Origin: Escherichia phage vB_EcoS_VAH1
Sequence record: MK373792.1
Strand: one strand, 5' to 3'
DNA: 64,000 bases
Shown: in pieces, positions 13,838-46,705 of the stretch
Position numbering within the stretch: the stretch's first letter is position 1
Layout of the letters: every line of letters starts with the position of its first letter
Position numbers and translations under genes: made by a program
Notes under the pieces: generated by a model
The model's input: only the letters and a program-made list of their open reading frames with translations
Databases searched by the model: none
What the model was told of the DNA's origin: nothing

Positions 13838-14009
13838 GTATAATTTTAAATAAACCTATGATATTGCTTTTAAGTAAAAAATTTACTTGCTTATAAAGGT
13901 AGAAATATGATACTAGATAATCATTTATTTATATGTAAAAATACTATGCTGTATAGCATCAATAAAAATTGATAAAAATCAAAAGTCAAATAGTATTAGA
14001 AAAATGTAG

Positions 14010-14038
14010 TTGACGTATGGGGTGGAATTATGTATAAT
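14010..14038 (+). promoter_or_regulatory. Sigma70 promoter (TTGACG-N17-TATAAT)
   Basis: Near-perfect consensus 21 nt upstream of the ATG at 14060. Confidence 0.65.
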
Positions 14039-14059
14039 ATGTGAATTAGGGAGAATTTA

Positions 14060-14731: not shown

Positions 14732-16544
14732 ATTAATTGAGAATTGCAAAGGTCTGCTCACTCTAACTGCGGATAAGGACTTACAGCATAATAATGCTAA
14801 TAAGCCTAGTGAGATGTTCCATACTCAAAGAGACTTATTAGCTGGGGAAATTAACAAGTATTTAGTATCGCAAGAATTACCTAAACACCTGTTAGACGCA
14901 CATAATCTAGGTAAAATACACATTCATGACATGGACTACAGAGCACAAGGGTACACCAACTGTTGCTTAGTAGATCTAGGCGGTATGCTGAAAAATGGCA
15001 CTAAAATTGGTAACGCAAATATTGAAACTCCTAAATCCATAACTACTGCATGCGCGATTACTGCTCAGATTATTGCTCAAGTATCGGGTGCTCAGTATGG
15101 TGGCACTTCTATTGATCGTATCGATGAGGTTTTAGCCCCCTATGTCAGAAAGTCTTATGATAAGCACCTGGGTCGTGGTCTACGTTGGCTCAAGGATGAA
15201 AGGAAAGCTGCTGTATATGCTACTGAACTTACTGAAAAAGAGTGTTATGATGCATTCCAAGCCCTAGAGTATGAAACTAATTCATTATTTAACTCTAACG
15301 GACAGACTCCTTTTGTTACGCTTGGCTTTGGGCTAGGACAGGGGTGGGAGGAAAGGATGATTCAGAAAGCCATCCTCCAAAACCGTATTAAAGGTTTAGG
15401 TGCTGCTGAGTCAACCCCTATCTTCCCTAAACTAGTATTCTCAGTTAAAGAAGGGTTAAATAAAAATCCAGGCGATCCTAACTATGATATAAAACAGCTA
15501 GCACTTGAGTGTTCTGCTACCCGTATGTACCCGGACTATTTAAGTTACGAGAAAGTTGTAGCTGTTACTGGTGATTTTAAAGCACCTATGGGTTGTCGTA
15601 GTTTTTTATCCGCTATTCCTTCTGGGGAAACTGCCGGCCGTAATAATCTGGGTGTAGTGTCTATTAATCTACCTATGGTTGCTGCTGAGGCAGATGGGGT
15701 TTTTGAAGATTTCTGGGATATTCTGGACAAATATGTGGATGAGGCTTTTGAAGCTCATGATTTTTTCTTGGATAGACTTAAGAAAGTGAAGGCTAAACAA
15801 GCCCCTATTCTTTATATGCACGGTGGTTTTGGTGTGCGTTTAGATGGGGAAGAGTATGTATGGCCAATTTTTGAGGGTAGATCTTCTGTATCTCTTGGGT
15901 ATATTGGGGTCTATGAGATGTGCCAAATAATGTTTAGTTTACCGCAGACTCATAGGGACTGTATTGAATTTACAGAGGAAGTTCTTACTCACCTAAAAAA
16001 TCGTTGCGAAGTTAAAGCTAATGAGACTAATCTTGGGTTTAGCTTGTATGCTACTCCTAGTGAGTCTCTATGTAATCGCTTTAATAAACTACTGGAACGT
16101 AGGTTCCCTGAGTATTCTTGGCTAACAGATAAAGGCTATCTCACTAATAGTCATCATTTGGACGTAAGGGAGAAGGTAGCTCCGGATACTAAATTTGAGT
16201 ATGAAGCTCATTTCACCAAAATAGCTAATGGTGGTAATATATCGTTTGTGGAACTACCACAAATGAAAAAGTTCCATAAAGCTCTTGAATACGTAGTAGA
16301 TAAGGGATTAGAATGTAGCCATTATATTGGTGTTAATATACCAATTGATGAGTGCTTCAACTGTGGGTATATGGGTGAATCTGTTGCCTCTGAACGTGGG
16401 TTTGTATGTCCAAGTTGTGGGTCTGAAGAAATAGAGGTTACACGTAGGGTTTGCGGGTACCTGGGATCCCCGGGCAGTAGGCCTTTCAATTCTGGGAAAC
16501 AAAAAGAAGTGCTTGGTAGAGTAAAACACTTAAATCTTAAGTAA
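14718..16544 (+). CDS. nrdD: Anaerobic ribonucleoside-triphosphate reductase
   Basis: 608 aa; C-terminal glycyl-radical motif TRRVCGYLG and a Cys-rich zinc ribbon (CFNCGY...CPSCGS). Confidence 0.9.
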   Translation: MTENELIENCKGLLTLTADKDLQHNNANKPSEMFHTQRDLLAGEINKYLVSQELPKHLLDAHNLGKIHIHDMDYRAQGYTNCCLVDLGGMLKNGTKIGNANIETPKSITTACAITAQIIAQVSGAQYGGTSIDRIDEVLAPYVRKSYDKHLGRGLRWLKDERKAAVYATELTEKECYDAFQALEYETNSLFNSNGQTPFVTLGFGLGQGWEERMIQKAILQNRIKGLGAAESTPIFPKLVFSVKEGLNKNPGDPNYDIKQLALECSATRMYPDYLSYEKVVAVTGDFKAPMGCRSFLSAIPSGETAGRNNLGVVSINLPMVAAEADGVFEDFWDILDKYVDEAFEAHDFFLDRLKKVKAKQAPILYMHGGFGVRLDGEEYVWPIFEGRSSVSLGYIGVYEMCQIMFSLPQTHRDCIEFTEEVLTHLKNRCEVKANETNLGFSLYATPSESLCNRFNKLLERRFPEYSWLTDKGYLTNSHHLDVREKVAPDTKFEYEAHFTKIANGGNISFVELPQMKKFHKALEYVVDKGLECSHYIGVNIPIDECFNCGYMGESVASERGFVCPSCGSEEIEVTRRVCGYLGSPGSRPFNSGKQKEVLGRVKHLNLK

Positions 16545-16551
16545 GCTAATC

Positions 16552-16589
16552 AGCCGGGTTGCTAGTCGACCTGGCTTTTATTTTATTTG
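16552..16589 (+). terminator. Rho-independent terminator after nrdD
   Basis: Stem AGCCGGG/CCTGGCT followed by TTTTATTTTATTT; overlaps the -35 of the next promoter. Confidence 0.5.
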
Positions 16590-16615
16590 CTTTCAGCCAA
16601 AAATTTATATATAAT
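16587..16615 (+). promoter_or_regulatory. PN25-like strong early promoter (TTGCTT-N17-TATAAT, then AGATTTATAAATTTGAGAGGAG)
   Basis: Resembles the T5 N25 promoter as I recall it, including the downstream CATAAAT-like region and GAGAGGAG ribosome-binding site. Confidence 0.65.
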
Positions 16616-16643
16616 AGATTTATAAATTTGAGAGGAGAAAGCT

Positions 16644-16925
16644 ATGAGCGAATTGCTTCCTAAAGTAGATGTCTCCCATCTTGGGGAGCCTAGTGAAGAA
16701 CGTAAGGCTCTAGATTGGTTGGGCGGATTTGATTATCGTCGTGTTGTTGCAACATGGAATGATAAGAAAGTTAAGAAGTTTCGGGTACATTATGTAGGTA
16801 AAGACAAGTGGCTCTGGATTGATTATGAAGAATCGAAGGGGTCTACTAAGGCTGTGAAAATTTATCGTATGTATGGGTATTATTATGCTCACTGTGATAA
16901 GAATGAATTTACAGTACAGAACTAA
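16644..16925 (+). CDS. Hypothetical protein
   Basis: 93-aa ORF with GAGAGGAG ribosome-binding site; first gene after the PN25-like promoter. Confidence 0.55.
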   Translation: MSELLPKVDVSHLGEPSEERKALDWLGGFDYRRVVATWNDKKVKKFRVHYVGKDKWLWIDYEESKGSTKAVKIYRMYGYYYAHCDKNEFTVQN

Positions 16926-16934
16926 GGAACAAGA

Positions 16935-17138
16935 ATGAAAAACGTAAAACATCTTAAATATCGCTTAATTTACAACGGACGTATGGAAACAGAAGATCTG
17001 GCCCAGTTAGCTATTAATTCTAATGAGGTTACAGTGCGTGCGCTGGCAATTGAAAAGTTGCGTGCCTCTTATGAAAATCGTGTTATGGAACTAGAGGAGA
17101 AACTTTATGGCATTCTCGAAGCCGATGCTACCAGATAA
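16935..17138 (+). CDS. Hypothetical protein
   Basis: 67-aa ORF with AAGGAA ribosome-binding site. Confidence 0.5.
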   Translation: MKNVKHLKYRLIYNGRMETEDLAQLAINSNEVTVRALAIEKLRASYENRVMELEEKLYGILEADATR

Positions 17139-17328
17139 GGGTTTAAACGCCGCTTTGGAAAACGCATTAATGCAGCACTGGGAAACTGGCTATAAGGATG
17201 GTGTTGAATCCTGCGCTACTATGCTAGAAGTTATTGCTAATACCTTAATGGAGAAAGGCAATAAAGAATTAGCTGAGCTATTAGACAGTATTGGGCAAAA
17301 CTTCAGAGAACAGGTGAAAAATGCGTAG
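17107..17328 (+). CDS. Hypothetical protein
   Basis: 73-aa ORF with GGAG ribosome-binding site; overlaps both neighbours. Confidence 0.5.
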   Translation: MAFSKPMLPDKGLNAALENALMQHWETGYKDGVESCATMLEVIANTLMEKGNKELAELLDSIGQNFREQVKNA

Positions 17329-26477: not shown

Positions 26478-26747
26478 ATGACCAATGTAAAAGAATTTAT
26501 TAAACGCTGTCAAGAAGCATATTATCAAGGTATGTCTTTAATCTCTGATGAGGAATATGATTGCCTAGTAAAACGCTTCCCGTTAGAGGAAGAGATCGGG
26601 CCTAAGGGTGATATTCCACATCTGTATCGTATGTATTCTTTACAGAAAGTTTACTATAACCGTGGAGATAAACCACCATTCAATCCTTTAGGTCAGGTGG
26701 AAACCGATAAGTTAGATGGTTGTGCAATTTCTCTGCTATATATTTAA
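26478..26747 (+). CDS. lig: NAD-dependent DNA ligase, N-terminal fragment (ends just after the KxDG adenylation motif)
   Basis: 89 aa ending ...KLDGCAISLLYI*; the ligase continues in another frame from about 26746. Confidence 0.7.
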   Translation: MTNVKEFIKRCQEAYYQGMSLISDEEYDCLVKRFPLEEEIGPKGDIPHLYRMYSLQKVYYNRGDKPPFNPLGQVETDKLDGCAISLLYI

Positions 26748-27303
26748 TGGCGAATTTGTTCAAGCACTAACTCGTGGTAATGGTATTCTGGGGAATGATG
26801 TCACAAGCAACGTAAGATTGCTGAACATCCCTAAAAAGATTTCCCAAAAAGTACCTACTCAAATCACTGGTGAAGTTCTAATTACAAAAGAAGTAGAAAA
26901 TAAACGTAACTTTGCCTCTGGTGCTATTAACCTCAAAGATAGTGATGCTTTTGTACAACGTATCGGGGAAGGTGGTTTAATCTTCGTTGCATACGGTATC
27001 CAGTGTTCTGCTGAATCTGTAGGTATTACAGAAGCGTATTTAAAAGATATGCTTTGGCTAGAGAATGAGAACTTCTTAACAGTTGTTATGTGCGTTCCTC
27101 CTTTAAAATGGATTCCGACGGACGGTAAAGTTGTTCGTATTAATGACAACAACAAATTCTTCCGGGAAGGCTGGACTAATAAATTCCCTCGTGGGGCATT
27201 CGCTATTAAAGAGGATGAAGAAGGCGAGATTACAACTCTTACTAAAGTTGAATGGCAGGTAGGGGCTTCTGGTAAAGTTCCAGTTGGTTATTTCGAACCG
27301 TAA
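26716..27303 (+). CDS. lig: NAD-dependent DNA ligase, adenylation-domain fragment
   Basis: Frame contains NGEFVQALTRGNG... directly continuing the KLDG motif of the previous ORF; ends at tandem TAA TAA. Confidence 0.7.
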   Translation: MVVQFLCYIFNGEFVQALTRGNGILGNDVTSNVRLLNIPKKISQKVPTQITGEVLITKEVENKRNFASGAINLKDSDAFVQRIGEGGLIFVAYGIQCSAESVGITEAYLKDMLWLENENFLTVVMCVPPLKWIPTDGKVVRINDNNKFFREGWTNKFPRGAFAIKEDEEGEITTLTKVEWQVGASGKVPVGYFEP

Positions 27304-27306
27304 TAA

Positions 27307-27453
27307 TTGATTGATGCCACAATTGTTAAAGCGACTCTTAATAACGTTGATTATATTAACTCTCTCGATCTAGAGATCGGTTGCCAGATTCGAGTGATTC
27401 GTGCTGGTGGTGTAATCCCGTGCATAGTAGAGCGAGTATACGATTATACATAA
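27307..27453 (+). pseudogene. lig: NAD-dependent DNA ligase OB-fold segment lacking its own start
   Basis: Same frame as the previous fragment, right after TAA TAA; encodes [13 protein letters not shown]...[16 protein letters not shown] (compare ligase ATLHN...RAGDVIP). Confidence 0.5.
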
Positions 27454-27585
27454 CCCTTTGCTACCCATCTACCGTATCGGAATTATGGTTATTGACATTT
27501 CGCCGCTTAGGTATATATACTATTATCATTCAGTTGAGGGATAGAAAGTTATGGCGAGGGTAAGCAAAGTTAGTTAAAATTGTAG

Positions 27586-27614
27586 TTGCTAAATGCTTAA
27601 ATACTTGCTATAAT
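27586..27614 (+). promoter_or_regulatory. Sigma70 promoter (TTGCTA-N17-TATAAT) for the ligase C-terminal ORF
   Basis: Consensus hexamers in the 190-bp gap between the ligase parts. Confidence 0.6.
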
Positions 27615-27644: not shown

Positions 27645-28424
27645 ATGAAAATCGAAATTCCAACACAATGTCCCTCTTGTGGTTCTAAGCTAGATCTTGT
27701 CAACGGACAATTATTCTGTCGTAATAAGTCCAACTGTCCAGCGCAATCAAGTAAGTTAATTGAGAACTTCTGTACAAAAATGAAGTTAAAGGGCTTTGGC
27801 CCGAAAACTATTGAGAAGCTGGAGCTGACGAAGATTTCAGAACTATTTTACCTAACCGAAGAAGATTTGGTTAGAGCAGTGGGTAGCAAGGTTGCCGCTA
27901 AATTAATTAGCGAATTAAATACTAAAGTTCGCGGAGACATTGACTTTGGTTCAGTTCTCGGTTCTTTAGGAATCCCTCTAATTGGAGAGGTTGCAGCAAA
28001 GAAATTATCCCAAAATTGCACTAGCTTCCACGATGTGAAGGCTGACGGCAAGGCTGGAGAAAACTATAAAGCCTGGCTAAATTCCCCACAAGGCAAGGAT
28101 GTTATCGAATTACCGTGGAAATTCACAACTGGTGTTAAAGGTGCTAAAGCTGAGGTCATCATTACTGATGGTCTAGTAGCCCAACCAAACGGAATAACGG
28201 TATGTATTACCGGATCTTTGCAAGATTTTGCAAATAGAACGGATGCAACAAACTATCTAGAAGGTCTAGGGTATACTGTTAAAAAATCAGTTACCAAAGA
28301 CGTTAAATACCTAATCTGTGAGGATGAATCTAAGCGTTCTTCCTCATCTTATAAGAAAGCCGAAACGAATGGGATAGAAATCCTGTCGATTAAAGAACTA
28401 TTGGAGAAAAATAATAATGTCTAA
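27645..28424 (+). CDS. lig: NAD-dependent DNA ligase, C-terminal part (Zn finger, HhH, BRCT)
   Basis: Track ORF 27642..28424; ATG at 27645 with AAGGAAG ribosome-binding site; CPSCGS...C...C zinc finger and BRCT-like C-terminus. Confidence 0.75.
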   Translation: MKIEIPTQCPSCGSKLDLVNGQLFCRNKSNCPAQSSKLIENFCTKMKLKGFGPKTIEKLELTKISELFYLTEEDLVRAVGSKVAAKLISELNTKVRGDIDFGSVLGSLGIPLIGEVAAKKLSQNCTSFHDVKADGKAGENYKAWLNSPQGKDVIELPWKFTTGVKGAKAEVIITDGLVAQPNGITVCITGSLQDFANRTDATNYLEGLGYTVKKSVTKDVKYLICEDESKRSSSSYKKAETNGIEILSIKELLEKNNNV

Positions 28425-29235: not shown

Positions 29236-30739
29236 ATTTAGAAGGCACGAAAGCGTGCAAAGGAGAATGACCTTGTTTAACGTGCAAGCTGTAGTGTTGA
29301 AGATGCTTCTAGCTTCCGAACAGAAGCAAATAGCATTGGAAACATTCTCAAAACTGCATAAAGATCATTTTAATGACGCTTTCTCCTCAATTTACCAAGC
29401 CGTCCAGAATTATTATAAAAAATATAACACAATGCCGTCCATTGACGCACTTATGCTTGAAGCTAATAGGAACGCCCGCCTTTCTCAAGCTCTAGTCGTC
29501 TTAGCTAACACTCAAATTCCAGAAGTGAGCATGGAACAGGCACTTGAAGTCCTAGAGGCCGAATATACACAGGATTTATTCCTGAAGCTTCTAGAAACAG
29601 ACGTGCTTCAAGATTTAACAATGCTGGATCAGGGAGAAATTCTCAACCGAGTTGCCTCCCTTCACTTAAAATTAGAAGAGAAAGTAACGAATACTGGAAA
29701 AGTATTCAACGCAGATAACATGCGTATTTTCCAGAGAGAAGAAGATACCAAACTGAACTTAATCGCTCTTGGTATTTGTAATGAGTTCGACGCTCAAATC
29801 GGTTTAGCTCGCACAGAAACGTTACTGCTTGGTGGTTGGCGTGGTACTGGTAAATCCATTATCTGTTCAAACATACAGGTTCAGCAATATTTGAATGGGG
29901 ATATTGCTCCATACTTCTCAATTGAGATGAAAGAACATGAAGTATTTAGACGTAATCTAGCCATGTTAGCTGGTGTATCAGCATTAGCAATGCGTAATAA
30001 TACTCTAGAAGGTGCAGCTCTGTTGAGATTAGCCAGAACTAGAGCTAGAATGTTTAATGGTGGTGAAGAGCTTTTCGACAACTTCGTTAAACAGTATACA
30101 ATGGCTAAGATGAGTGATTTCTACGATATGGAGAGTAAGCTAATAGAGGGATATGAACTACATACTCCTATGATTATCGTTTATGACCCTGAACTGTCCA
30201 TTACAACAGTTGACGTAGAATTAAATAAATTAGTTGCTAGATATGGTGATAAAGTTACAGTAGCTCTACTTGACTATATTAACCAAACCCGACTTCCAGA
30301 CTCTAAAACCATTGATATGTATGACTGGAAAGAACAGATGGTTGTTAGCTCGTCTTTCAAATCTATCTGCCAGAAACATAACGTGGCTGGTGTAGCTCCT
30401 TACCAGATCGATCAAGATGGTAGAACACGTATGTCAAAGGGTATTCTTGATTCCGCAGATATGGCTGCTAATCTTAATGCTGCAAAAGCTGATAATGGTC
30501 AAGGTGCTATTATGTTTGACTTCGTTAAGACTCGTTCTTCTGATAGCGTGAAGTTTATGCCTAAAATGAACTGGGAAACCTTGCGGATGGATAACACTAC
30601 CAACCTAGCAATGGAAGATATATCTCAAATGGAAGCTGAGTTCATTATCCCTATTGAGAAGGATAAGCCGGCTCAACCTAAACGTGCTAAGAAAGACAAA
30701 ACTGAAAATTCAACAGGTGAACAGGCCAGCGATATATGA
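29216..30739 (+). CDS. DnaB/RecA-like P-loop ATPase, putative replicative helicase
   Basis: 507-aa frame; Walker A GGWRGTGKS; true start uncertain because 29216 is inside the terminator hairpin (alternatives near 29267-29273). Confidence 0.55.
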   Translation: MLLPLFAFRRHESVQRRMTLFNVQAVVLKMLLASEQKQIALETFSKLHKDHFNDAFSSIYQAVQNYYKKYNTMPSIDALMLEANRNARLSQALVVLANTQIPEVSMEQALEVLEAEYTQDLFLKLLETDVLQDLTMLDQGEILNRVASLHLKLEEKVTNTGKVFNADNMRIFQREEDTKLNLIALGICNEFDAQIGLARTETLLLGGWRGTGKSIICSNIQVQQYLNGDIAPYFSIEMKEHEVFRRNLAMLAGVSALAMRNNTLEGAALLRLARTRARMFNGGEELFDNFVKQYTMAKMSDFYDMESKLIEGYELHTPMIIVYDPELSITTVDVELNKLVARYGDKVTVALLDYINQTRLPDSKTIDMYDWKEQMVVSSSFKSICQKHNVAGVAPYQIDQDGRTRMSKGILDSADMAANLNAAKADNGQGAIMFDFVKTRSSDSVKFMPKMNWETLRMDNTTNLAMEDISQMEAEFIIPIEKDKPAQPKRAKKDKTENSTGEQASDI

Positions 30740-31269
30740 TAACACAGGAAAGGCTAAAAGAGTTATTTGATTACTCCCCAGGAACTGGGGAGTTTACTAG
30801 AAAAGTATCTAGAGGTAATCAGAAAGCTGGTAGTATAGCTGGTTCTTTAAGAAAAGATGATTATATATGTATATGGGTAGATGGAAAGCCTTACTATGCG
30901 CATCAACTAGCTTTTCTCTATATGGAAGGTTATTTACCTGAAGAAGTAGACCATATAAACCGTATACGAAGTGATAATCGTTGGGTTAACCTTAAAGATT
31001 CTTCTCACCAAGAGAATAGCAGGAATAAAGCAGCTAAAAGTAAATCAGGGTATATAGGAGTTAGTTGGAATAAACAAAGGCAAAAATGGCAAGTTCAACT
31101 AAGAGATACCAATAAAAAGAAAATATTCGGTGGATATTTTGAGTACCAGAATTTAGAATCAGCCGTAGATAAGATTAATAAGCTACGATTACAATTTCAT
31201 GGGGAAAATGCTATTCAAGAAATATTCGACCCGTCTAATTATCCTGCATTAGAGGAGATAAATTCATGA
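30736..31269 (+). CDS. HNH homing endonuclease (HNH_3 + AP2)
   Basis: 177 aa; N-terminus MITQERLKEL shared with the ORF at 38324; HQLAFLYMEGYLPEEVDHINR. Confidence 0.8.
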   Translation: MITQERLKELFDYSPGTGEFTRKVSRGNQKAGSIAGSLRKDDYICIWVDGKPYYAHQLAFLYMEGYLPEEVDHINRIRSDNRWVNLKDSSHQENSRNKAAKSKSGYIGVSWNKQRQKWQVQLRDTNKKKIFGGYFEYQNLESAVDKINKLRLQFHGENAIQEIFDPSNYPALEEINS

Positions 31270-32605: not shown

Positions 32606-35173
32606 TTGAAAATCGCAGTAGTTGATAAAGCTCTAAATAACACTCGTTATGATAAACATTTCCAGCTATACGGCGAGGAAGTTGATGTATTCCATATGTG
32701 TAACGAGAAGTTGTCCGGTCGTTTGCTCAAAAAGCATATTACTATAGGGACTCCGGAAAACCCATTTGACCCGAATGATTATGATTTTGTTATACTGGTA
32801 GGTGCCGAACCTTTCCTGTACTTTGCAGGTAAGAAAGGTATTGGTGATTATACTGGTAAACGTGTAGAGTATAATGGATATGCTAACTGGATTGCGAGTA
32901 TCAGCCCAGCCCAGTTACACTTTAAACCTGAAATGAAACCAGTTTTTGATGCAACAGTAGAGAATATCCACGATATTATCAATGGTCGTGAGAAGATTGC
33001 AAAAGCTGGTGATTACCGTCCTATTACTGACCCTGATGAGGCAGAAGAATATATCAAGATGGTGTATAATATGGTTATCGGACCTGTCGCATTCGACTCC
33101 GAAACCTCAGCACTATACTGTCGAGATGGTTATCTACTTGGTGTTTCTATATCTCACCAAGAGTATCAGGGTGTATATATCGATTCTGATTGCCTCACAG
33201 AGGTTGCAGTATATTACCTCCAGAAAATCCTGGATAGTGAAAACCACACTATTGTTTTTCACAACTTGAAGTTTGATATGCACTTTTATAAGTACCATCT
33301 GGGACTTACTTTTGATAAAGCACATAAAGAACGCAGGCTCCATGATACCATGTTGCAGCACTATGTTCTAGATGAACGTCGTGGTACTCATGGCTTGAAA
33401 TCTCTAGCAATGAAGTATACCGATATGGGTGACTATGACTTTGAACTAGATAAGTTCAAAGATGATTACTGCAAAGCACATAAAATCAAGAAAGAAGATT
33501 TCACCTATGATTTAATTCCGTTTGATATTATGTGGCCTTACGCTGCGAAAGATACAGATGCCACCATACGTTTGCACAACTTCTTCTTACCAAAGATTGA
33601 GAAGAATGAAAAACTTTGCAGTCTGTATTACGATGTTTTGATGCCTGGTTGCGTATTCTTGCAACGTGTTGAAGATCGTGGTGTACCTATTTCTATCGAT
33701 CGTTTAAAAGAAGCTCAGTATCAGTTAACCCATAATCTGAATAAAGCCCGTGAGAAACTGTACACTTATCCAGAAGTTAAACAGCTAGAACAAGATCAGA
33801 ATGAAGCGTTTAACCCGAACTCTGTTAAGCAGCTGCGCGTTCTTCTGTTTGATTACGTTGGCTTAACTCCAACAGGTAAACTGACGGATACTGGAGCAGA
33901 TTCTACAGATGCAGAAGCTCTGAATGAGCTGGCTACGCAGCATCCAATTGCTAAAACTCTACTAGAGATTCGTAAGCTGACTAAGCTGATCTCTACTTAT
34001 GTTGAGAAGATTCTACTGAGTATTGATGCAGATGGTTGCATTCGTACTGGTTTCCATGAACATATGACTACTTCTGGTCGTCTGAGTTCTTCTGGTAAAC
34101 TGAACCTGCAACAGCTACCTCGTGATGAATCTATTATCAAGGGTTGTGTAGTTGCACCACCTGGATACCGTGTAATCGCGTGGGACTTAACAACTGCGGA
34201 AGTTTACTATGCTGCTGTTCTATCTGGGGATAGAAATATGCAACAGGTATTTATCAACATGAGAAATGAACCCGATAAATACCCAGACTTCCACTCTAAC
34301 ATCGCCCACATGGTATTTAAATTGCAATGTGAACCTCGTGATGTTAAGAAGCTGTTCCCAGCTCTACGTCAGGCAGCTAAGGCAATTACCTTTGGTATTT
34401 TGTATGGTTCTGGCCCGGCTAAAGTAGCACATTCTGTTAACGAAGCATTGCTCGAACAAGCAGCCAAAACTGGGGAACCGTTTGTTGAATGTACTGTTGC
34501 AGATGCTAAAGAGTACATTGAGACTTACTTTGGTCAATTCCCACAGCTTAAGCGTTGGATTGATAAGTGCCACGATCAGATCAAGAATCATGGATTTATC
34601 TATAGTCACTTTGGTCGTAAACGTCGTCTGCATAATATCCATTCCGAAGACCGTGGTGTTCAGGGTGAAGAAATTCGTTCTGGATTTAACGCAATCATTC
34701 AGTCTGCTTCTTCTGATAGTCTCCTTTTAGGTGCTGTAGATGCAGATAATGAGATCATTTCTCTTGGTTTAGAACAAGAGATGAAGATTGTTATGTTGGT
34801 TCATGACTCCGTAGTTGCTATTGTTCGTGAGGATTTGATCGACCAATACAATGAAATCCTGATTCGTAATATTCAGAAAGACCGTGGTATCAGTATTCCT
34901 GGCTGTCCGATTGGTATTGATTCAGATTCTGAAGCCGGGGGTTCTCGTGACTATTCTTGTGGTAAGATGAAGAAACAGCACCCATCAATTGCTTGTATTG
35001 ATGATGATGAATATACTCGTTACGTTAAAGAAATGCTACTTGATGCAGATTTCGAGTATAAGAAACTAGCTGCGATGGATAAAGAGCATCCAGACCACAG
35101 CAAGTACAAGGATGATAAGTTTATTGCTGTATGTAAAGATCTGGATAACGTGAAAAGGATTCTCGGTGCTTAA
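32606..35173 (+). CDS. DNA polymerase, family A (T5-type, 855 aa), TTG start
   Basis: 855 aa from a TTG with AAGAGGAG ribosome-binding site; N-terminal 3'-5' exonuclease and C-terminal Pol I-like polymerase domains. Confidence 0.9.
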   Translation: MKIAVVDKALNNTRYDKHFQLYGEEVDVFHMCNEKLSGRLLKKHITIGTPENPFDPNDYDFVILVGAEPFLYFAGKKGIGDYTGKRVEYNGYANWIASISPAQLHFKPEMKPVFDATVENIHDIINGREKIAKAGDYRPITDPDEAEEYIKMVYNMVIGPVAFDSETSALYCRDGYLLGVSISHQEYQGVYIDSDCLTEVAVYYLQKILDSENHTIVFHNLKFDMHFYKYHLGLTFDKAHKERRLHDTMLQHYVLDERRGTHGLKSLAMKYTDMGDYDFELDKFKDDYCKAHKIKKEDFTYDLIPFDIMWPYAAKDTDATIRLHNFFLPKIEKNEKLCSLYYDVLMPGCVFLQRVEDRGVPISIDRLKEAQYQLTHNLNKAREKLYTYPEVKQLEQDQNEAFNPNSVKQLRVLLFDYVGLTPTGKLTDTGADSTDAEALNELATQHPIAKTLLEIRKLTKLISTYVEKILLSIDADGCIRTGFHEHMTTSGRLSSSGKLNLQQLPRDESIIKGCVVAPPGYRVIAWDLTTAEVYYAAVLSGDRNMQQVFINMRNEPDKYPDFHSNIAHMVFKLQCEPRDVKKLFPALRQAAKAITFGILYGSGPAKVAHSVNEALLEQAAKTGEPFVECTVADAKEYIETYFGQFPQLKRWIDKCHDQIKNHGFIYSHFGRKRRLHNIHSEDRGVQGEEIRSGFNAIIQSASSDSLLLGAVDADNEIISLGLEQEMKIVMLVHDSVVAIVREDLIDQYNEILIRNIQKDRGISIPGCPIGIDSDSEAGGSRDYSCGKMKKQHPSIACIDDDEYTRYVKEMLLDADFEYKKLAAMDKEHPDHSKYKDDKFIAVCKDLDNVKRILGA

Positions 35174-35181
35174 TTTCAAAT

Positions 35182-35208
35182 TGCCCGTATATGCTTTACG
35201 GGCATTTG
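35182..35208 (+). terminator. Terminator-like hairpin after the polymerase gene
   Basis: Stem TGCCCGTA/TACGGGCA followed by a weak TTTGTAT run. Confidence 0.4.
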
Positions 35209-35375
35209 TATCAATTGAGCAAGAAGGTGATTATTCCGTAATTACAACAAGATATAATAAATATGTGCTAGATAACAGGAAGTTGCCTGGTACTTTTTCT
35301 CAACGTAGGCTTATTCTATTTGAGAAACGGAAAGAATTACCATACAAGCTCTATCCTATTAGAGGTAGAATATCA

Positions 35376-35663
35376 ATGTTGTCTCAATTAGTTGGGTCAA
35401 AGCGTAGCCAATTTATAGATTCTGATGGAAATCTTATTAACTGGAAGAAAACTACGTTCTATGATGTTGTCACCTCTAAAGTTTTGCATTCAGCTAGAAT
35501 TTATAACGGAAAATACCAATGCTATGTAGCTAAAGTTCCATATCCATTTGTATTATCCTATGTTCCAGCTTATATAAGCTATATTCTGGTAAATAATAGC
35601 CCTGTTATTTATCAAGTCCATCAAGAGGAGCCTGAAATTCCTAGACTTAGAATAAAATTATGA
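35376..35663 (+). CDS. Hypothetical protein (start uncertain)
   Basis: Track ORF 35166..35663 begins over the terminator; the internal ATG at about 35376 has a GAGGT ribosome-binding site. Confidence 0.3.
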   Translation: MLSQLVGSKRSQFIDSDGNLINWKKTTFYDVVTSKVLHSARIYNGKYQCYVAKVPYPFVLSYVPAYISYILVNNSPVIYQVHQEEPEIPRLRIKL

Positions 35664-35812
35664 AGGTTGTTATATCTAATAAAGCCTATTTCAAGCCCGA
35701 TGATGAACTTTGGGATTATTGTAGTAAGCAAACCACTTATCACATAGAGACAATGACTAGTAAATACCCTATTATGTATAAGAATAGTGGTGTTGTTGCC
35801 CAAAGAGATTAA
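35660..35812 (+). CDS. DExH-box helicase, N-terminal fragment (about 50 aa; absent from the ORF track)
   Basis: ATG overlaps the upstream stop (ATGA); MKVVISNKAYFKPDDELWDYCSKQTTYHIETMTSKYPIMYKNSGVVAQRD*; the frame shifts at a GCCC run into the next fragment. Confidence 0.4.
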   Translation: MKVVISNKAYFKPDDELWDYCSKQTTYHIETMTSKYPIMYKNSGVVAQRD

Positions 35813-36239
35813 GTGGATTCCTATTACGCGTCTGGACTTATTAGATGCTAAAGGAATAAAATACGAATTAGTCGATAAACGCACATTAGCTCCAGTAGAT
35901 ATACCAAAACCTGAGTTCAAGCTGCGTGAAGAAGACCAGCTCCCAATATATAAAGAGTGTGATGATACCTGTATTATTAATGGTAAGCCTGGATTTGGTA
36001 AAACTATCCTAGCCCTTGCACTTGCGTATAAATTTGGCCAGAAAACTTTGGTAATCTGTACAAATACATCCATACGTGAAATGTGGGCGGCAGAAGTTCG
36101 TAAATGGTTTGGGTTTGAACCAGGCATCATAGGTTCTGGGAAGTACAATATTGATCCACCAATTGTAGTCAGCAATATTCAAACAGTAAATAAACATGCG
36201 AATAATCTTTCTAAAGTATTCGGTACTGTTTATAGTTGA
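35787..36239 (+). CDS. SF2 DExH-box helicase (D10-like), fragment with motif I
   Basis: No ribosome-binding site at the track start; Walker A GKPGFGKT; ends ...KVFGTVYS* at a GTTT run. Confidence 0.7.
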   Translation: MVLLPKEIKWIPITRLDLLDAKGIKYELVDKRTLAPVDIPKPEFKLREEDQLPIYKECDDTCIINGKPGFGKTILALALAYKFGQKTLVICTNTSIREMWAAEVRKWFGFEPGIIGSGKYNIDPPIVVSNIQTVNKHANNLSKVFGTVYS

Positions 36240-37014
36240 TGAAGTTCACCATTGTGTGGCTACAACTTTCACTAATTTCCTAGAAATATCATGTGCTCGC
36301 TATAAAATTGGACTATCCGGTACACTAAAACGAAAAGATGGTTTACAAGTTATGTTCAAAGATTTCTTTGGATATAAGATATTTAGCCCGCCGGTTAATA
36401 ATACTGTTGCACCTACAATCCATAGGTACTCCGTGCCTGTTGAGCTATCAGGAAACCAAAACGTGCCGTGGGCATTACGTGCTAACGATGTGTATAATCA
36501 TCCTGAATATCGAGAGACTATTATAAACCTAGCACATTTATATGTGAATATGGGGCATAAAGTACTCATTGTAAGTGATAGAACAGAGTTAATCCAAACA
36601 GTACTAGAAGCTCTTACGCAGCGGGGTGTTACAACATATGAAATTATAGGGGCAACCCACTTAGATGACCGATTAAAAATTCAGGAAGATATAGCAAAAG
36701 GTGGGCCTTGTGTACTTGCAGCAGCTCAAAGTATCTTCTCTGAAGGTATTTCTCTTAATGAGCTATCTTGTTTAATAATGGGAAGCCTCATTAATAATGA
36801 ATCTCTCATTGAACAGCTTGCAGGCCGTGTTCAACGTATTGTCGATGGTAAACTCGACCCTATTGTTGTAGATCTAATTATGAAAGGTGGCACTGGACTA
36901 AGACAGGCTTCTGGACGTATGGCAGTATATCGTAACAACGGGTGGAAAACTATTACTATGACCCCGGAGAAAGCAGTTCAATTAGCTAAAATTGCATTTG
37001 GCAACAGCTCATAA
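36196..37014 (+). CDS. SF2 DExH-box helicase (D10-like), fragment with motifs II-VI
   Basis: Begins ...FIVDEVHH (motif II), then SGT (motif III) and QLAGRVQR (motif VI); frame is +1 relative to the previous fragment. Confidence 0.7.
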   Translation: MRIIFLKYSVLFIVDEVHHCVATTFTNFLEISCARYKIGLSGTLKRKDGLQVMFKDFFGYKIFSPPVNNTVAPTIHRYSVPVELSGNQNVPWALRANDVYNHPEYRETIINLAHLYVNMGHKVLIVSDRTELIQTVLEALTQRGVTTYEIIGATHLDDRLKIQEDIAKGGPCVLAAAQSIFSEGISLNELSCLIMGSLINNESLIEQLAGRVQRIVDGKLDPIVVDLIMKGGTGLRQASGRMAVYRNNGWKTITMTPEKAVQLAKIAFGNSS

Positions 37015-37026
37015 ATGATGTATAAT
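36998..37026 (+). promoter_or_regulatory. Putative promoter (TTGGCA-N17-TATAAT) within the helicase 3' end
   Basis: Followed by CATAAATTTGAGAGAGAGAAAG, which resembles the PN25 downstream region. Confidence 0.45.
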
Positions 37027-37099
37027 ATATACATAAATTTGAGAGAGAGAAAGTTTCGGATTGATAAGAAAGTCCGAAGCAGAAAAATAAAAATTTTAG

Positions 37100-37129
37100 T
37101 TGCTAAATTCTCTCGAAATCTAGTATAAT
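37100..37129 (+). promoter_or_regulatory. Sigma70 promoter (TTGCTA-N18-TATAAT)
   Basis: Followed by CATAAATTCGAGGAG; upstream of the genes at 37237 and 37514. Confidence 0.55.
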
Positions 37130-37236
37130 ATATACATAAATTCGAGGAGAAAACAAAAATTAAATTCTTCGATTATGAAAAGCTATACTTACTAGCTAGA
37201 GGAAATTCCGACTTAATTATTAAGTTATTCAAAAGA

Positions 37237-38323: not shown

Positions 38324-38800
38324 ATGATTACACAAGAGCGATTAAAAGAGCTGTTAGATTATAATCCTGAGACTGGAGTATTTACCTGGAAAGTATCTCG
38401 TGGTAGAGTTTCAAAAGGATCTGTAGCTGGAACAGCAGTATCAGTAGGGAATAGGTACACCCGCTGGGAGATTCGAGTTGAAGGAAAAAGATATAAGGCG
38501 CATCAGTTAGCATTTCTATACGTTCATGGTTATATTCCACCTGAGATTGATCATGAAGATAGGAATCCATTGAATAATGCAATACTTAACCTAATAGACT
38601 CTTCAAAGTCTCGTAATCAATTAAATAAGAATAAAAACTTCGGTAAAGAAACACCAAAAGGAGTCTTTGTAAAAGCCTCTACTGGAAGATACTTCGTACA
38701 GATTCAAGGAAAGCACTACGGCTACTTTGATGACGTAGAACAGGCCAGAACTGTTGCTAATGAGGTATATGATAGGTTGTTAAATGAGAATACTGTTTAG
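38324..38800 (+). CDS. HNH homing endonuclease (paralog of 30736..31269)
   Basis: 158 aa; MITQERLKELLDY...HQLAFLYVHGYIPPEIDHEDRN. Confidence 0.8.
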   Translation: MITQERLKELLDYNPETGVFTWKVSRGRVSKGSVAGTAVSVGNRYTRWEIRVEGKRYKAHQLAFLYVHGYIPPEIDHEDRNPLNNAILNLIDSSKSRNQLNKNKNFGKETPKGVFVKASTGRYFVQIQGKHYGYFDDVEQARTVANEVYDRLLNENTV

Positions 38801-43654: not shown

Positions 43655-46600
43655 CTATACCTTATTTGCTAGTAGAGAATTAACTACTAGGGTTAGGTCT
43701 GCAATTTGCTTTTTAAGATCAGATACTTCTGATTCTAGGGCTGAGATCCTGCTATCAGATTCTCTGCCTGCCTGTACTAATAGACCTGTTATAGCCGCAT
43801 AGTCAACAGAATAGAAACGTTCCTCACCAACTAGTTGCTCACCAGTAAGTGTAGGCCCTTCAAGATCTGTATATTTTGTAAACCCACTTACAGCTTCAGG
43901 TAGAGCTTCCATTACTTCCTGAGCTATAACACCAGCGTAAGGTAGCCCATTTTCCTTAAGGGTATAAGTATAGCCTTTCATTTTACGCAATGATTCAGTG
44001 GCGTTTTGGATTTCCTCAATATTATCCTTCAGATCTCTATCGGATGACTGGGTAATGTTTGTTGCTTCAACTTTTCCATTAACATTAAAAACACGGGATC
44101 CATCAGAGCTTTGCTGAGCATAAAACAAATAACCATCTGATAGCTTACATTCAACAACAGAGGGCCTCCCAGTAGTATTACCCCATAGCAAGATAGTAGC
44201 ACTTTTTGCGGCTGTCTGATTATTTTCGTAACTAAACGTCCTACCATTACCCCGCCGTACAACCACTGCAGATCCATCAGCAAATATACCCCCATTATAA
44301 TTAGGAGTTCTTAATGTGATATTATCGCTTACAGTTAGAGTACTGCTATTCATATCGTTATGTATGATAACATCCTTAGCAGCCCCACCTTTCCCCACAT
44401 ACCACAGTCTACCAGAATCTGTTCTACATGCTAAATAGCCAACTTGAGACGTATCGGTTCCGGTAAGTCTTATCGATAAGGCCTCACCAGCTTTAGTTAT
44501 CGAAACAGGCACACCAAAATCAGCAAATTTATCTGTAATTAATCTGTTCCATGCCCCAATAGTACCACCATCAATACTTCTAGCCCAGAATTTAGATCCA
44601 CGACCTGCAAACTGGGTAGCATAATTACCGCTAAACCCTACATGGATACCACCATATACAACATTGTTTTCCGGAGTATTAACTTGACCAGCAATACCAT
44701 AAAACTTATTGACAGTGTTATGTTGTGTATTCCAGTCTACACCAGTAGAAGATAGAATACCAGAAGGAGCTGAAAAAGTTCCTTCTTTATTGAAGTTAAA
44801 GAATTGATGGTTAATTCCTGCTGGATCTCTAACAATAACCTGACCAGCATTTTCACTAGCTCTAAACTCTGCACCATATATTGTATCTCCCACTCTATAC
44901 CTAGAATAGAAGGTGGCATTAGATACAGATATACCATCAGCAATAACACCATTACCAGCCGCTATAGTACCACTAAAAGTAATCTTAGGAGCATATAAAG
45001 ACAGTTCGTCCCCGACGTTCATACCGTTAGAAAGAACTATACGCTCACCATTTCCTATGTAATAGTTCCCTTCCGTTGTTGCTTGATAGAAACCTATACG
45101 GTTTAAAGAAAAATCAAACATAGTAAGAACATCAGTTGAATCTGTTGCAGGATTAGCGGTCCCCCATGCGTAAGTTGTATTTTTATACGTAAAGTTTGAC
45201 GTTGGTACAGTTACTTCACAGAATGCAGGAACACGTAGCTGAACAGGAAAACCACGGGCCTCAATATAAATTGCAACATATCTTTCAGCATCTTTGGAAG
45301 AAGAAAGAATACATTTCATTGCAATCTCACTTCTCGCATAGTTATTGAAGTACCCGTACCCACCATCTTTACGATCACTCCAGCCCCCGCACCTAATAAA
45401 GCCATTGAAGCTACAACAGTTCATAGGGTCATTGCCAGTAGAGGATCGTGTTTTTATATCAATAAAAGCACCAGAGGCATATAGTGAACGGTAAGCAAGA
45501 TCAATAATGACAGGATAATACTTTCCATCTTCAACACCAGCAGGTGCATTAAGTGTTACCCATTCACCACCACCTATAGAGGGTATCTGGAGGTTATTTT
45601 TTGCTTCTGATATAGAGCGGCCACCGGTACCTCCTTGTCCTACTGCAAGAGGTATATATGATCTATTCTCTATATCATAAGCTCCCCAAAGTTTACCACT
45701 AGTAATAATGATTTTAGCATTATTACCTGGGTTTAACAGTTGGGTCTCAGAGCTAAGCTGTACAAGCCTATTTACATCATCTATTCTAGCATTTTTTGTC
45801 CATAAAGGGCCGCTTTCTGGTCTCCAACGATATGAGTATATTGCTTTAGTGGACGAGCCTACAAATAAGCCTGCAAATGAAGGTACACCATCAGTACCTG
45901 AAATAAATCCTGTAAGAACTGTTTCACCTACTGCTATACTAGGAAAACCTGTAGCCGTTTCATATATTCTTAGAAACCCCAGGAAATTGGAGGGATTACC
46001 AGAAATATCTGGACAATCCCTTGGGGAATCCCCAAGACCGATAGAAGCTTTCATACCAGAAGCTACATTTTCAGCTTTAGTAGCAGATGCCGCCGCATTA
46101 GTTTCTGATGTTTTAGCATTGGTTTCTGATGCTTTAGCAGCATTAGCACTGTTAGCAGCAGCATTTTTACTATTATTAGCATTAGTTTCTGAAGTTTTAG
46201 CCGCAGCAGCCGAAGCACTGGCATTAGTTTCTGATGTTTTAGCTGCTGAAGCAGAAGCAGCCGCAGCAGTTTTGCTACTATTAGCATTGGTTTCTGAGGT
46301 TTTAGCTGCGGTTTCACTAGCCTTTGCTTTAGTTTCTGAAGTTTTAGCAGCAGTTTCACTAGCTTTTGCATTAGTTTCAGAAGTTTTTGCAGCTTTAGCG
46401 CTATTAGCAGAAGCAGTAGCAGAAGAAGCAGACTGAGTTGCAGACTGCTGAGAAGATGCCGCAGAAATTTCTGCTTCATTTTCAGAATCTTTGGCATTTA
46501 GCTCCGACTGTTTTGCATTAATTTCAGATTGCTTAGCTGCTGCAGCAGATGCTTTAGAAGACTCTATAGCAGAGACTAGCTCTCCTGCTGTAATAGAGCT

Positions 46601-46705
46601 GATTGTACTTCCCAGAACTATAGTATATTTAGGATATTTACTTGCAGTTATACTATTCTGGTCCATAGTGACCATTTGCTGTAAAATTATTTTAGTTATA
46701 GCCAT
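43655..46705 (-). CDS. L-shaped tail fibre protein (pb1-like) with C-terminal S74 intramolecular-chaperone domain
   Basis: 1016 aa; Ala/Thr/Ser/Glu-rich N-terminal repeats; C-terminus ...DLKDNIEEIQNATESLRKMKGYTYT... is typical of the auto-cleaving chaperone domain. Confidence 0.75.
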   Translation of the reverse strand: MAITKIILQQMVTMDQNSITASKYPKYTIVLGSTISSITAGELVSAIESSKASAAAAKQSEINAKQSELNAKDSENEAEISAASSQQSATQSASSATASANSAKAAKTSETNAKASETAAKTSETKAKASETAAKTSETNANSSKTAAAASASAAKTSETNASASAAAAKTSETNANNSKNAAANSANAAKASETNAKTSETNAAASATKAENVASGMKASIGLGDSPRDCPDISGNPSNFLGFLRIYETATGFPSIAVGETVLTGFISGTDGVPSFAGLFVGSSTKAIYSYRWRPESGPLWTKNARIDDVNRLVQLSSETQLLNPGNNAKIIITSGKLWGAYDIENRSYIPLAVGQGGTGGRSISEAKNNLQIPSIGGGEWVTLNAPAGVEDGKYYPVIIDLAYRSLYASGAFIDIKTRSSTGNDPMNCCSFNGFIRCGGWSDRKDGGYGYFNNYARSEIAMKCILSSSKDAERYVAIYIEARGFPVQLRVPAFCEVTVPTSNFTYKNTTYAWGTANPATDSTDVLTMFDFSLNRIGFYQATTEGNYYIGNGERIVLSNGMNVGDELSLYAPKITFSGTIAAGNGVIADGISVSNATFYSRYRVGDTIYGAEFRASENAGQVIVRDPAGINHQFFNFNKEGTFSAPSGILSSTGVDWNTQHNTVNKFYGIAGQVNTPENNVVYGGIHVGFSGNYATQFAGRGSKFWARSIDGGTIGAWNRLITDKFADFGVPVSITKAGEALSIRLTGTDTSQVGYLACRTDSGRLWYVGKGGAAKDVIIHNDMNSSTLTVSDNITLRTPNYNGGIFADGSAVVVRRGNGRTFSYENNQTAAKSATILLWGNTTGRPSVVECKLSDGYLFYAQQSSDGSRVFNVNGKVEATNITQSSDRDLKDNIEEIQNATESLRKMKGYTYTLKENGLPYAGVIAQEVMEALPEAVSGFTKYTDLEGPTLTGEQLVGEERFYSVDYAAITGLLVQAGRESDSRISALESEVSDLKKQIADLTLVVNSLLANKV
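46060..46480 (-). repeat. Tandem in-frame nucleotide repeats encoding the (AAKTSETNA)n-like low-complexity region of the tail fibre
   Basis: Repeated GCAGCAGTTTCACTAGC.../TTAGTTTCTGAAGTTTTAGC units; they also generate spurious ORFs on the + strand (45708..46436, 46063..46497). Confidence 0.6.

What the first reader, a model, noticed from the sequence alone, without database searches (positions are those of the whole stretch)
35660..37014. D10-like DExH helicase gene is interrupted by two apparent +1 frameshifts at short homopolymers
Three consecutive frames carry one helicase: an N-terminal piece (35660..35812, translationally coupled to the upstream ORF), the motif-I piece (35787..36239, no start or ribosome-binding site of its own), and the motif II-VI piece (36196..37014). 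Removing a single C at the GCCC run (about 35800) and a single T at the GTTT run (about 36228) restores one ORF (...NSGVVAKEIKW... and ...GTVIVDEVHH...). The ligase has the same kind of lesion, so there may be a common cause: sequencing chemistry, transcriptional slippage, or genuine gene decay.
Basis: partly seen in the sequence, partly recalled or inferred. Interest (0 to 1): 0.55.

Follow-up and report, generated by a model that had tools for sequence, protein, structure and literature searches.

The report
Two stray bases split D10 helicase
An ordinary, otherwise well-conserved T5-type D10 helicase gene is cut into three reading frames by two single extra bases found in no other known genome, most likely uncorrected errors in the deposited assembly rather than biology.

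Summary
The window comes from Escherichia phage vB_EcoS_VAH1 (MK373792), a T5-like phage. Positions 35660-37014 are the ortholog of T5 gene D10, a UvsW-like SF2 helicase. It is 1355 nt instead of 1353 because of one extra C (CC>CCC, 35799-35801) and one extra T (TT>TTT, 36229-36231). Each shifts the frame by +1. Removing both gives a clean 450-aa ORF with all helicase motifs.

Neither insertion occurs in any of 425 and 224 matching phage records, or in 17 and 27 IMG/VR contigs, or in two sister phages from the same study. Differences from relatives in the repaired gene are overwhelmingly synonymous, so long-term decay is excluded. There is no slippery codon, no long homopolymer and no conservation, so programmed recoding and transcriptional slippage are not supported.

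Only one other gene in the 64-kb window is broken: ligA. It has 10 unique indels within 776 bp but only 8 unique substitutions, a ratio no ordinary evolutionary process gives. The other 44.9 kb of aligned coding sequence has no indels.

Best explanation: local, uncorrected indel errors in the assembly (about 0.68). Main rival: real, very recent mutations in the sequenced stock (about 0.25). Only the reads or resequencing can settle it. Interest is low.

The parts
35166..35663 (+). Upstream ORF (homolog of T5.123, 165 aa). Its TGA stop overlaps the D10 ATG as ATGA.
   Evidence: 98.8% aa identity to T5.123; T5 has the same 4-nt overlap
35660..35812 (+). D10 piece 1: codons 1-47 of D10, then 3 out-of-frame codons (Q R D) and TAA
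   Evidence: exact match to QBQ80745.1 (VAH1_00138)
35799..35801 (+). CCC run containing one extra C relative to all relatives (CC). First +1 frame break.
   Evidence: absent from 425 phage records and 17 IMG/VR contigs
35787..36239 (+). D10 piece 2 (frame +1). Encodes D10 residues 48-190 from 35802 onward, including Walker A GKPGFGKT at 35982-36005. No start codon with an RBS of its own.
   Evidence: (ResIII profile positions 23-117)
36229..36231 (+). TTT run containing one extra T relative to all relatives (TT). Second +1 frame break, 2 codons upstream of motif II.
   Evidence: absent from 224 phage records and 27 IMG/VR contigs
36196..37014 (+). D10 piece 3: residues 191-450, with motif II DEVH at 36238-36249, motif III SGT at 36316-36324, and motif VI QLAGRVQR (Arg finger R389) at 36814-36837
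   Evidence: (end of ResIII plus Helicase_C); exact match to QBQ80747.1 'putative helicase' of vB_EcoS_VAH1
26478..27447 (+). ligA (NAD-dependent DNA ligase subunit A), the only other broken gene in the window. Lesions: +T 26745 (TAA after Ile89); -A 27089 with +A 27108; -AAC 27279; -G 27301 with +T 27312 (creates TAA TAA); -A 27447.
26745..27520 (.). 776-bp patch holding 10 of the 20 window-specific indels but only 8 window-specific substitutions. Covers the ligA 3' part and the ligA-ligB spacer.
   Evidence: Fisher p = 8e-5 against other non-coding DNA; not shared by any of about 435-443 relatives
27645..28424 (+). ligB (ligase subunit B), intact. The ligA/ligB division is native to T5-like phages.
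   Evidence: 98.5% aa identity to T5 LigB

Best explanation
The region is the ordinary, functional-type D10 helicase gene of a T5-like phage (vB_EcoS_VAH1). The two extra bases are most likely residual single-base insertion errors in the deposited consensus. They would belong to a small number of local low-quality patches, the other being the 3' part of ligA about 8.5 kb upstream. On this reading the phage itself makes a normal 450-aa D10 protein, and the three-ORF structure exists only in the database record.

Shown: the lesions are unique to this genome, the gene is otherwise under purifying selection, and the ligA patch has an indel excess unlike any other part of the window.

Inferred: that the cause is technical. 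The study used PacBio RSII/HGAP3 for some genomes and Illumina/SPAdes for others, and I could not find out which was used for VAH1.
For: 1. Uniqueness. Neither insertion is found in 425 and 224 matching phage records; the best hits are 98.8% and span 80 of 81 nt. Neither is in 17 and 27 IMG/VR contigs. All 19 full-length IMG/VR D10 genes, six GenBank orthologs and the sister phages HdH2 and EASG3 from the same study have intact 1353-nt genes.

2. No decay. The repaired ORF differs from relatives by 30-39 synonymous against 3-8 nonsynonymous codons, mostly at third positions. Against 23 distinct relatives it has only 3 unique codons.

3. Multiple hits confined to two genes. Of about 70 genes, only ligA and D10 are read in more than one frame. 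The other 44.9 kb of aligned coding DNA has 810 unique substitutions and no indels.

4. The ligA patch. It has 10 unique indels against 8 unique substitutions in 776 bp, compared with 8 against 70 in other non-coding DNA (p = 8e-5). Its substitution density is below average, and one of its two -1/+1 pairs creates tandem stop codons. This is an error-like pattern, not a mutation-and-selection pattern, and it shows that the assembly contains local indel-rich stretches.

5. Source. The window is MK373792. The paper states that genomes were sequenced with either PacBio RSII/HGAP3 or Illumina/SPAdes, and lists 208 CDS for VAH1 against 178-179 for its three sister T5-like phages.

6. Selection for an intact D10. 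When T5 is selected to escape a retron triggered by D10, only missense D10 alleles are recovered, whereas T4 escapers carry uvsW frameshifts (PMC12746101). In Kenya-K44-type phages the only natural interruption seen is a group-I-intron-like insert, which would splice out.
Against: - Reported mean coverage is about 850x. At that depth a polished PacBio or an Illumina consensus should be nearly free of indels, so a local assembly problem has to be assumed.
- The insertions sit in 2-nt runs, while the longer runs in the same gene (GGGG x3, AAAAA, CCCC) are clean. That is not the classic length-dependent homopolymer error profile.
- If VAH1 was an Illumina/SPAdes assembly, such indels would most likely be real.
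- For D10 alone, the indel-to-substitution ratio (2:9) does not differ significantly from intergenic DNA (p = 0.6).
- No reads were available.
Confidence: 0.68

Rival explanations
1. The insertions are real, very recent mutations in the sequenced VAH1 stock, arising during isolation or laboratory propagation or present in the dominant genotype. D10 (and ligA) would then be fresh null alleles, and the phage would grow without them, relying on host functions such as LigA, RecG or RuvAB.
For: - The sequence as deposited has them, coverage is high (about 850x), and the rest of the window is frame-perfect.
- The insertions are not at the longest homopolymers.
- D10's role in T5 replication is described as unclear (PMC5180179). 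Its T4 counterpart UvsW can be lost: T4 escapers of the retron carry uvsW frameshifts.
- D10 is a trigger of retron Eco11, so loss could in principle be selected.
Against: - One frameshift is enough to inactivate a gene, yet D10 has two and ligA has seven, with almost no unique substitutions alongside them.
- No known mutational process gives 10 indels to 8 substitutions in 776 bp.
- D10 is intact in every other T5-like genome examined, several hundred in all.
- T5 retron escapers were all missense, which suggests null alleles are not viable or are strongly counter-selected.
- From my own knowledge: the T5 'D' genes were originally defined by conditional-lethal mutants.
Confidence: 0.25
2. Long-term pseudogenisation: D10 has been decaying in the VAH1 lineage.
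For: Two frame-breaking lesions in one gene, and a second damaged DNA-metabolism gene nearby.
Against: - Differences from relatives are about 10:1 synonymous to nonsynonymous along the whole gene, including downstream of both breaks.
- There are only 3 unique codons.
- Unique substitution density is lower than in other genes: 9 in 1.36 kb against about 18 per kb.
- No stop codons, deletions or rearrangements are present other than the two insertions.
Confidence: 0.03
3. Programmed recoding: two +1 ribosomal frameshifts, or transcriptional slippage, yield full-length D10 from the interrupted gene.
For: - Each overlap between the incoming and outgoing frames is short and ends at a stop codon (35757-35809 and 36190-36236).
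- At site 1 the rare Arg codon AGA follows CAA, so a hungry-codon +1 shift can at least be imagined.
Against: - No conservation: the sites do not exist in any relative.
- No P-site codon can re-pair in the +1 frame (GCC>CCC, CAA>AAA, GAU>AUU; GUU>UUU, AGU>GUU), and there is no prfB-like CUU UGA context.
- Two independent efficient events would be needed in one gene.
- The runs are 3 nt long, against roughly 7 or more A/T for known transcriptional slippage (my own knowledge).
- Recoding cannot explain the ligA lesions, which include tandem in-frame stops.
Confidence: 0.02

Closest known systems
Bacteriophage T5 D10 helicase (T5.124, AAS77170.1; Wong, Sayers & Sanders 2016, PMC5180179)
   Same: - Same position: pol, T5.123, D10, T5.125, D11.
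- About 97% nucleotide identity. The three tblastn pieces are 96.6-99.2% identical to T5 D10 at the amino-acid level.
- Same length once repaired (450 aa).
- Same SF2 motifs, including Walker A, DEVH and the Arg finger R389.
- Same ATGA overlap with the upstream gene.
   Different: Two extra bases (C at 35799-35801, T at 36229-36231) split the ORF into three frames. The repaired protein has two unique substitutions, K85E and E98K.
T4 UvsW (structural and functional homolog of D10; branch-migration SF2 helicase)
   Same: Same helicase class. Both trigger type III-A3 retron Eco11 (PMC12746101).
   Different: Only distantly related in sequence (the paper reports 20-30% identity). uvsW frameshift alleles were recovered in T4 retron escapers, whereas T5 escapers carried only missense D10 alleles.
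Intron-interrupted D10 of Salmonella phages Kenya-K44, phA11 and phC11
   Same: D10 is annotated there as separate 'DNA helicase' pieces as well (112 aa and 340 aa).
   Different: In those phages a ~1-kb insert at the Walker A motif carries a 238-aa ORF and matches the group I intron model RF00028 (E = 1.5e-8, 40.8 bits, below the 50-bit gathering score). That is a mobile element expected to splice out. The window has no insert, only +2 nt.
Native ligA/ligB split ligase of T5-like phages
   Same: One enzyme encoded as separate ORFs in the same replication-gene block.
   Different: The ligase split is conserved in all relatives, has a ~200-bp spacer with promoters, and each part has its own start. 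The D10 pieces overlap out of frame, lack their own RBS, and are unique to this record.
prfB-type programmed +1 ribosomal frameshifting
   Same: A +1 shift would be needed close to an in-frame stop codon.
   Different: No slippery CUU-type codon, no upstream Shine-Dalgarno stimulator of the prfB kind, no conservation, and two sites would be required.

Membership tests
T5 D10 / UvsW-like SF2 branch-migration helicase | N-terminal RecA-like domain (ResIII/DEAD) plus Helicase_C domain | tested here: met
   On the repaired translation: ResIII 101-224 (E = 1.1e-19) and Helicase_C 292-393 (E = 5.3e-10)
T5 D10 / UvsW-like SF2 branch-migration helicase | Walker A (GxGKT), motif II DExH, motif VI arginine finger (R389 in T5 D10) | tested here: met
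   GKPGFGKT at aa 108-115, DEVH at 193-196, QLAGRVQR at 385-392 with R389
T5 D10 / UvsW-like SF2 branch-migration helicase | Orthologous position between pol/T5.123 and T5.125/D11, with high identity to T5 D10 | tested here: met
T5 D10 / UvsW-like SF2 branch-migration helicase | Single uninterrupted ORF of about 450 aa | tested here: not met
   Three ORFs in three frames; 1355 nt against 1353 nt
T5 D10 / UvsW-like SF2 branch-migration helicase | DNA-dependent ATPase and branch-migration activity | not testable with these tools
   Biochemistry is known only for T5 D10 (PMC5180179)
Programmed +1 ribosomal frameshift | Frameshift site conserved among orthologs | tested here: not met
   0 of 425 and 0 of 224 phage records, and 0 of 17 and 0 of 27 IMG/VR contigs, carry the insertions
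Programmed +1 ribosomal frameshift | P-site codon able to re-pair in the +1 frame, next to a slow or stop codon | tested here: not met
   Codon contexts GCC CAA AGA GAT TAA and GTT TAT AGT TGA offer no good +1 re-pairing
Programmed transcriptional slippage | Long A or T homopolymer (roughly 7 nt or more; from my own knowledge) | tested here: not met
   The runs are CCC and TTT, 3 nt each
Evolutionary (unitary) pseudogene | Relaxed selection: raised nonsynonymous and total substitution rate, with further lesions | tested here: not met
   33 synonymous to 3 nonsynonymous codons against the closest relative; 3 unique codons; unique substitution density below the window mean
Intron- or homing-endonuclease-interrupted D10 (Kenya-K44 type) | Insert of about 1 kb with intron-like RNA and an ORF inside the gene | tested here: not met
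   The window gene is only 2 nt longer than T5 D10. The insert is seen in L037.
Sequencing or assembly indel artefact | Lesions absent from the reads or from an independent resequencing | not testable with these tools
   No reads and no independent assembly: the cluster look-up shows a single contig from NCBI only, and MK373792 is not in the annotated collection
Sequencing or assembly indel artefact | Singleton run-length changes, indel excess without substitution excess, and multiple hits in otherwise conserved genes | tested here: met

The most novel reading that the evidence does not exclude
The two insertions (and the ligA lesions) are real, and VAH1 is a naturally viable T5-like phage lacking intact D10 helicase and LigA. 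That would show both to be dispensable on its host. It would also raise the possibility that D10 loss is a way to escape helicase-sensing defences such as the type III-A3 retron Eco11, which D10 triggers.
Probability: 0.12. Interest if true: 0.45.

Novelty: not a real feature. Interest (0 to 1): 0.1.

Why it matters
There is little biological significance. If the lesions are an artefact, the practical value is curation. MK373792 carries fragmented annotations (VAH1_00138, VAH1_00139 and QBQ80747.1 for D10, plus fragments for ligA) that have spread into UniRef and protein clusters as 'hypothetical protein' and a truncated 'putative helicase'. If the lesions were real, they would show that D10, which is universally conserved in T5-like phages and triggers a retron defence, can be lost. 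That would be of moderate interest for T5 replication and for phage-defence escape.

Tried and rejected
I replaced them with N{0,1} gap patterns built from the window's own flanks.
- The source record MK373792 is not in the annotated phage collection. I could not read its sequencing-technology comment or its annotation outside the window.
- I tried to reach the VAH1 flanks beyond the window, to test whether indispensable genes such as portal or terminase are also broken. Exact-protein look-ups failed: two proteins were not on record and two returned only other phages.
- The VAH1 paper and its supplement give coverage and CDS counts but not the platform used for each phage.
- I found no direct statement that D10 is essential. 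One search failed on a term that was too short. Essentiality therefore rests on conservation, on the missense-only retron escapers, and on my own recollection that the T5 D genes were defined by conditional-lethal mutants.
- I considered and rejected the idea that the -1/+1 indel pairs in ligA are functional compensations. One of the two pairs creates TAA TAA.
- I considered and rejected a -1 frameshift on the CCCAAAG heptamer created by the extra C. It is in the wrong register for ribosomes arriving in the D10 frame.

Full report
**What is there**

The window is a T5-like (Tequintavirus) genome. Positions 32606-35173 encode the DNA polymerase, 35166-35663 a homolog of T5.123, and 35660-37014 the ortholog of T5 gene D10. 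The first ATG overlaps the upstream stop as ATGA, as in T5.

In T5 (two records), vB_Sen_I1, OSYSP, IME178 and FGS029 the orthologous CDS is a single 1353-nt gene. The window version is 1355 nt. A multiple alignment places the two extra bases exactly (confirmed pairwise):
- a C in the run 35799-35801 (CC>CCC);
- a T in the run 36229-36231 (TT>TTT).

Removing one base at each site gives a 450-aa ORF reading ...NSGVVAKEIKW... and ...GTVIVDEVHH.... Its features are:
- ResIII (101-224) and Helicase_C (292-393) domains;
- Walker A GKPGFGKT, at 35982-36005;
- motif II DEVH, at 36238-36249;
- the arginine finger R389 in QLAGRVQR, at 36814-36837.

The second break falls two codons before motif II and cuts the first RecA-like domain in two.

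**Where the sequence comes from**

An exact-sequence look-up shows that the 50-aa and 272-aa pieces are QBQ80745.1 (VAH1_00138) and QBQ80747.1 ('putative helicase') of Escherichia phage vB_EcoS_VAH1, on a 124,537-bp contig. The middle piece is annotated there as QBQ80746.1 (149 aa). The three-piece structure is thus already in the public annotation.

The phage was described by Korf et al. 2019 (PMC6563267). It is accession MK373792, isolated from budgie droppings, with about 850x coverage. It has 208 CDS, against 178-179 for the three sister T5-like phages of the same study. Genomes were sequenced with 'either Illumina or PacBio RS II' and assembled with SPAdes or HGAP3. The platform for each phage is not given.

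**Are the insertions found anywhere else?**

No.
- With 81-nt queries centred on each site, 425 and 224 phage records match. None reaches 99% identity; the best are 98.8% and span 80 bases, which is the uninserted state.
- Exact k-mers containing the insertions have no hits in IMG/VR.
- Gap-tolerant patterns find 17 and 27 contigs, all with the uninserted length.
- All 19 full-length D10 genes in those loci are intact 1353-nt ORFs.
- The sister phages HdH2 and EASG3, from the same laboratory and study, have intact D10 and ligA.
- The 90% protein cluster has 447 members, and those listed are mostly 448-450 aa.

**Is the gene decaying?**

No. After repair, the gene differs from relatives by 30-39 synonymous and 3-8 nonsynonymous codons, and the changed bases are mostly at third positions. 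This holds along the whole gene, including downstream of both breaks. Against 23 distinct relatives only three codons are unique: K85E at a variable site, E98K, and one synonymous change. Window-specific substitutions are less dense in D10 (9 in 1.36 kb) than in the rest of the coding sequence (about 18 per kb). The lesions are therefore either extremely recent or not biological.

**Is it recoding?**

There is no support for this.
- The sites do not exist in any relative.
- At neither site can the P-site codon re-pair in the +1 frame. The contexts are GCC CAA AGA GAT TAA and GTT TAT AGT TGA TGA.
- Two efficient shifts would be needed in one gene.
- The homopolymers are 3 nt long, far too short for transcriptional slippage (the length requirement is from my own knowledge).
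- The CCCAAAG heptamer created by the extra C is in the wrong register for a -1 event.
- Pieces 2 and 3 have no Shine-Dalgarno sequence. Splitting a RecA-like domain between motifs Ib and II is unlikely to leave activity (inference).

**The wider window: a common cause?**

I translated every annotated CDS of T5 and of the closest relative FGS029 in the syntenic region and searched them against the window. Of about 70 genes, only ligA and D10 are read in more than one frame. The others are intact, mostly at 94-100% identity.

ligA (26478-27447) carries these lesions:
- +T at 26745, giving TAA after Ile89;
- -A at 27089 paired with +A at 27108, which garbles 6 residues;
- -AAC at 27279;
- -G at 27301 paired with +T at 27312, which gives E P * * L I D;
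- -A at 27447;
- three more indels in the ligA-ligB spacer.

None of about 440 relatives shares these. Projecting both references onto the window gives 20 window-specific indels, 10 of them inside 26745-27520. The counts per region are:

| Region | Size | Unique substitutions | Unique indels |
|---|---|---|---|
| ligA patch | 776 bp | 8 | 10 |
| D10 | 1355 bp | 9 | 2 |
| Other coding | 44.9 kb | 810 | 0 |
| Other non-coding | 4.0 kb | 70 | 8 |

The ligA patch differs from non-coding DNA with p = 8e-5. At D10's indel rate, about 66 frameshifts would be expected in the other coding DNA, and there are none.

The assembly is therefore excellent overall, with two local stretches that have single-base length changes and no matching excess of substitutions. 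Mutation and selection do not produce that pattern. A local consensus problem does: for example a low-coverage or poorly polished stretch, or a manual join.

ligA is damaged. But the ligA/ligB division, with its promoters, is the normal T5 arrangement, and ligB is intact here.

**Weighing error against real mutation**

For error:
- The lesions are singletons.
- There are multiple hits per gene (two in D10, seven in ligA) when one would be enough to inactivate.
- The ligA patch has an indel-only signature.
- D10 is intact in every other T5-like genome examined.
- T5 escapers from the D10-triggered retron Eco11 were all missense, while T4 escapers carried uvsW frameshifts (PMC12746101).
- The only natural D10 interruption I found (Kenya-K44, phA11, phC11) is a ~1-kb insert at Walker A that matches the group I intron model (E = 1.5e-8, below the gathering score). 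Such an element should splice out.
- The study used PacBio RSII for part of its genomes.

Against error:
- Mean coverage is about 850x.
- The insertions are in 2-nt runs, while the longer runs in the gene are clean.
- The platform is unknown. If it was Illumina/SPAdes, the indels are probably real.
- For D10 alone, the indel-to-substitution ratio does not differ significantly from intergenic DNA (p = 0.6).

My estimates are about 0.68 for artefact, 0.25 for real recent mutations in the stock, 0.03 for long-term decay and 0.02 for recoding.

**Comparison with what is known, and novelty**

In every testable respect except ORF continuity, the gene is a member of the T5 D10 / UvsW-like SF2 helicase family (Wong et al. 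2016, PMC5180179). The interruption matches no known biological class of interrupted gene: not programmed frameshifting, transcriptional slippage, an intron or homing-endonuclease insertion, or a native split like ligA/ligB. I classify the 'interrupted helicase' as most likely not a real feature.

If the lesions were real, the result would be a viable T5-like phage without D10 and LigA, with a possible link to escape from helicase-sensing retrons. That would be of moderate interest and has low probability.

**What would settle it**

The read pile-ups, or Sanger resequencing of the DSMZ stock at 35700-36300 and 26600-27600. Also useful are the technology line of the GenBank record and a scan of the rest of the genome for breaks in indispensable structural genes. 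None of these could be done here.

Noticed in passing
window 26478-27520: ligA (NAD-dependent ligase subunit A) is the only other broken gene in the window. It has seven indels, including an early TAA and a TAA TAA pair, plus three more in the ligA-ligB spacer. All are unique to this genome, and there is no excess of substitutions. Each of the two -1/+1 pairs also encloses one substitution.
   Followed up: yes
L037 (Salmonella phage Kenya-K44, OQ291036.1) 2030-4398; also phA11/phC11 proteins: D10 is split into 112-aa and 340-aa pieces by a ~1-kb insert at the Walker A motif. The insert carries a 238-aa ORF with a weak TnsA-like endonuclease hit. It matches the group I intron model RF00028 (E = 1.5e-8, 40.8 bits, below the 50-bit gathering score). 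The 112-aa fragment is seen on 14 contigs. This looks like an unannotated intron in a phage helicase gene.
   Followed up: partly
window 38324-38800: A 158-aa ORF between D11 and D12 resembles the T5 HNH homing endonucleases hegH and hegI at about 30-35% identity. T5 has no gene in this position. FGS029 has an HNH gene in the same slot, but that protein found no match at this position in the window; its only hit was the HNH gene at 30727-31212 (31% identity).
   Followed up: no
window 14000-17300 and 43660-46700: Mosaic regions. The nrdD region is only 57-61% identical at protein level to T5 and FGS029. The L-shaped tail fibre gene is largely replaced: it covers 15% of T5 Ltf, and 55-82% identity to parts of the FGS029 fibre.
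   Followed up: no
cluster (Klebsiella phage vB_Kpn_3, QXN67547.1 and QXN67548.1): Another deposited T5-like genome has D10 fragments: 186 aa named 'helicase' and 40 aa named 'recombination-related endonuclease'. This suggests similar frameshift problems in other records.
   Followed up: no
Korf et al. 2019, supplementary Table S4: VAH1 is listed under genus Dhillonvirus in the table although the text assigns it to Tequintavirus. It has 208 CDS against 178-179 in its sister phages with only about 4 kb more DNA, which hints at further fragmented or over-called genes outside this window.
   Followed up: no
window 37015-37140: The intergenic region after D10 holds two copies of a TATAATATATACATAAATT-type element, corresponding to T5 promoters P31A and P31B. 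It also has a (GA)n run one repeat unit longer (+GA at 37041) than in T5 and FGS029.
   Followed up: no
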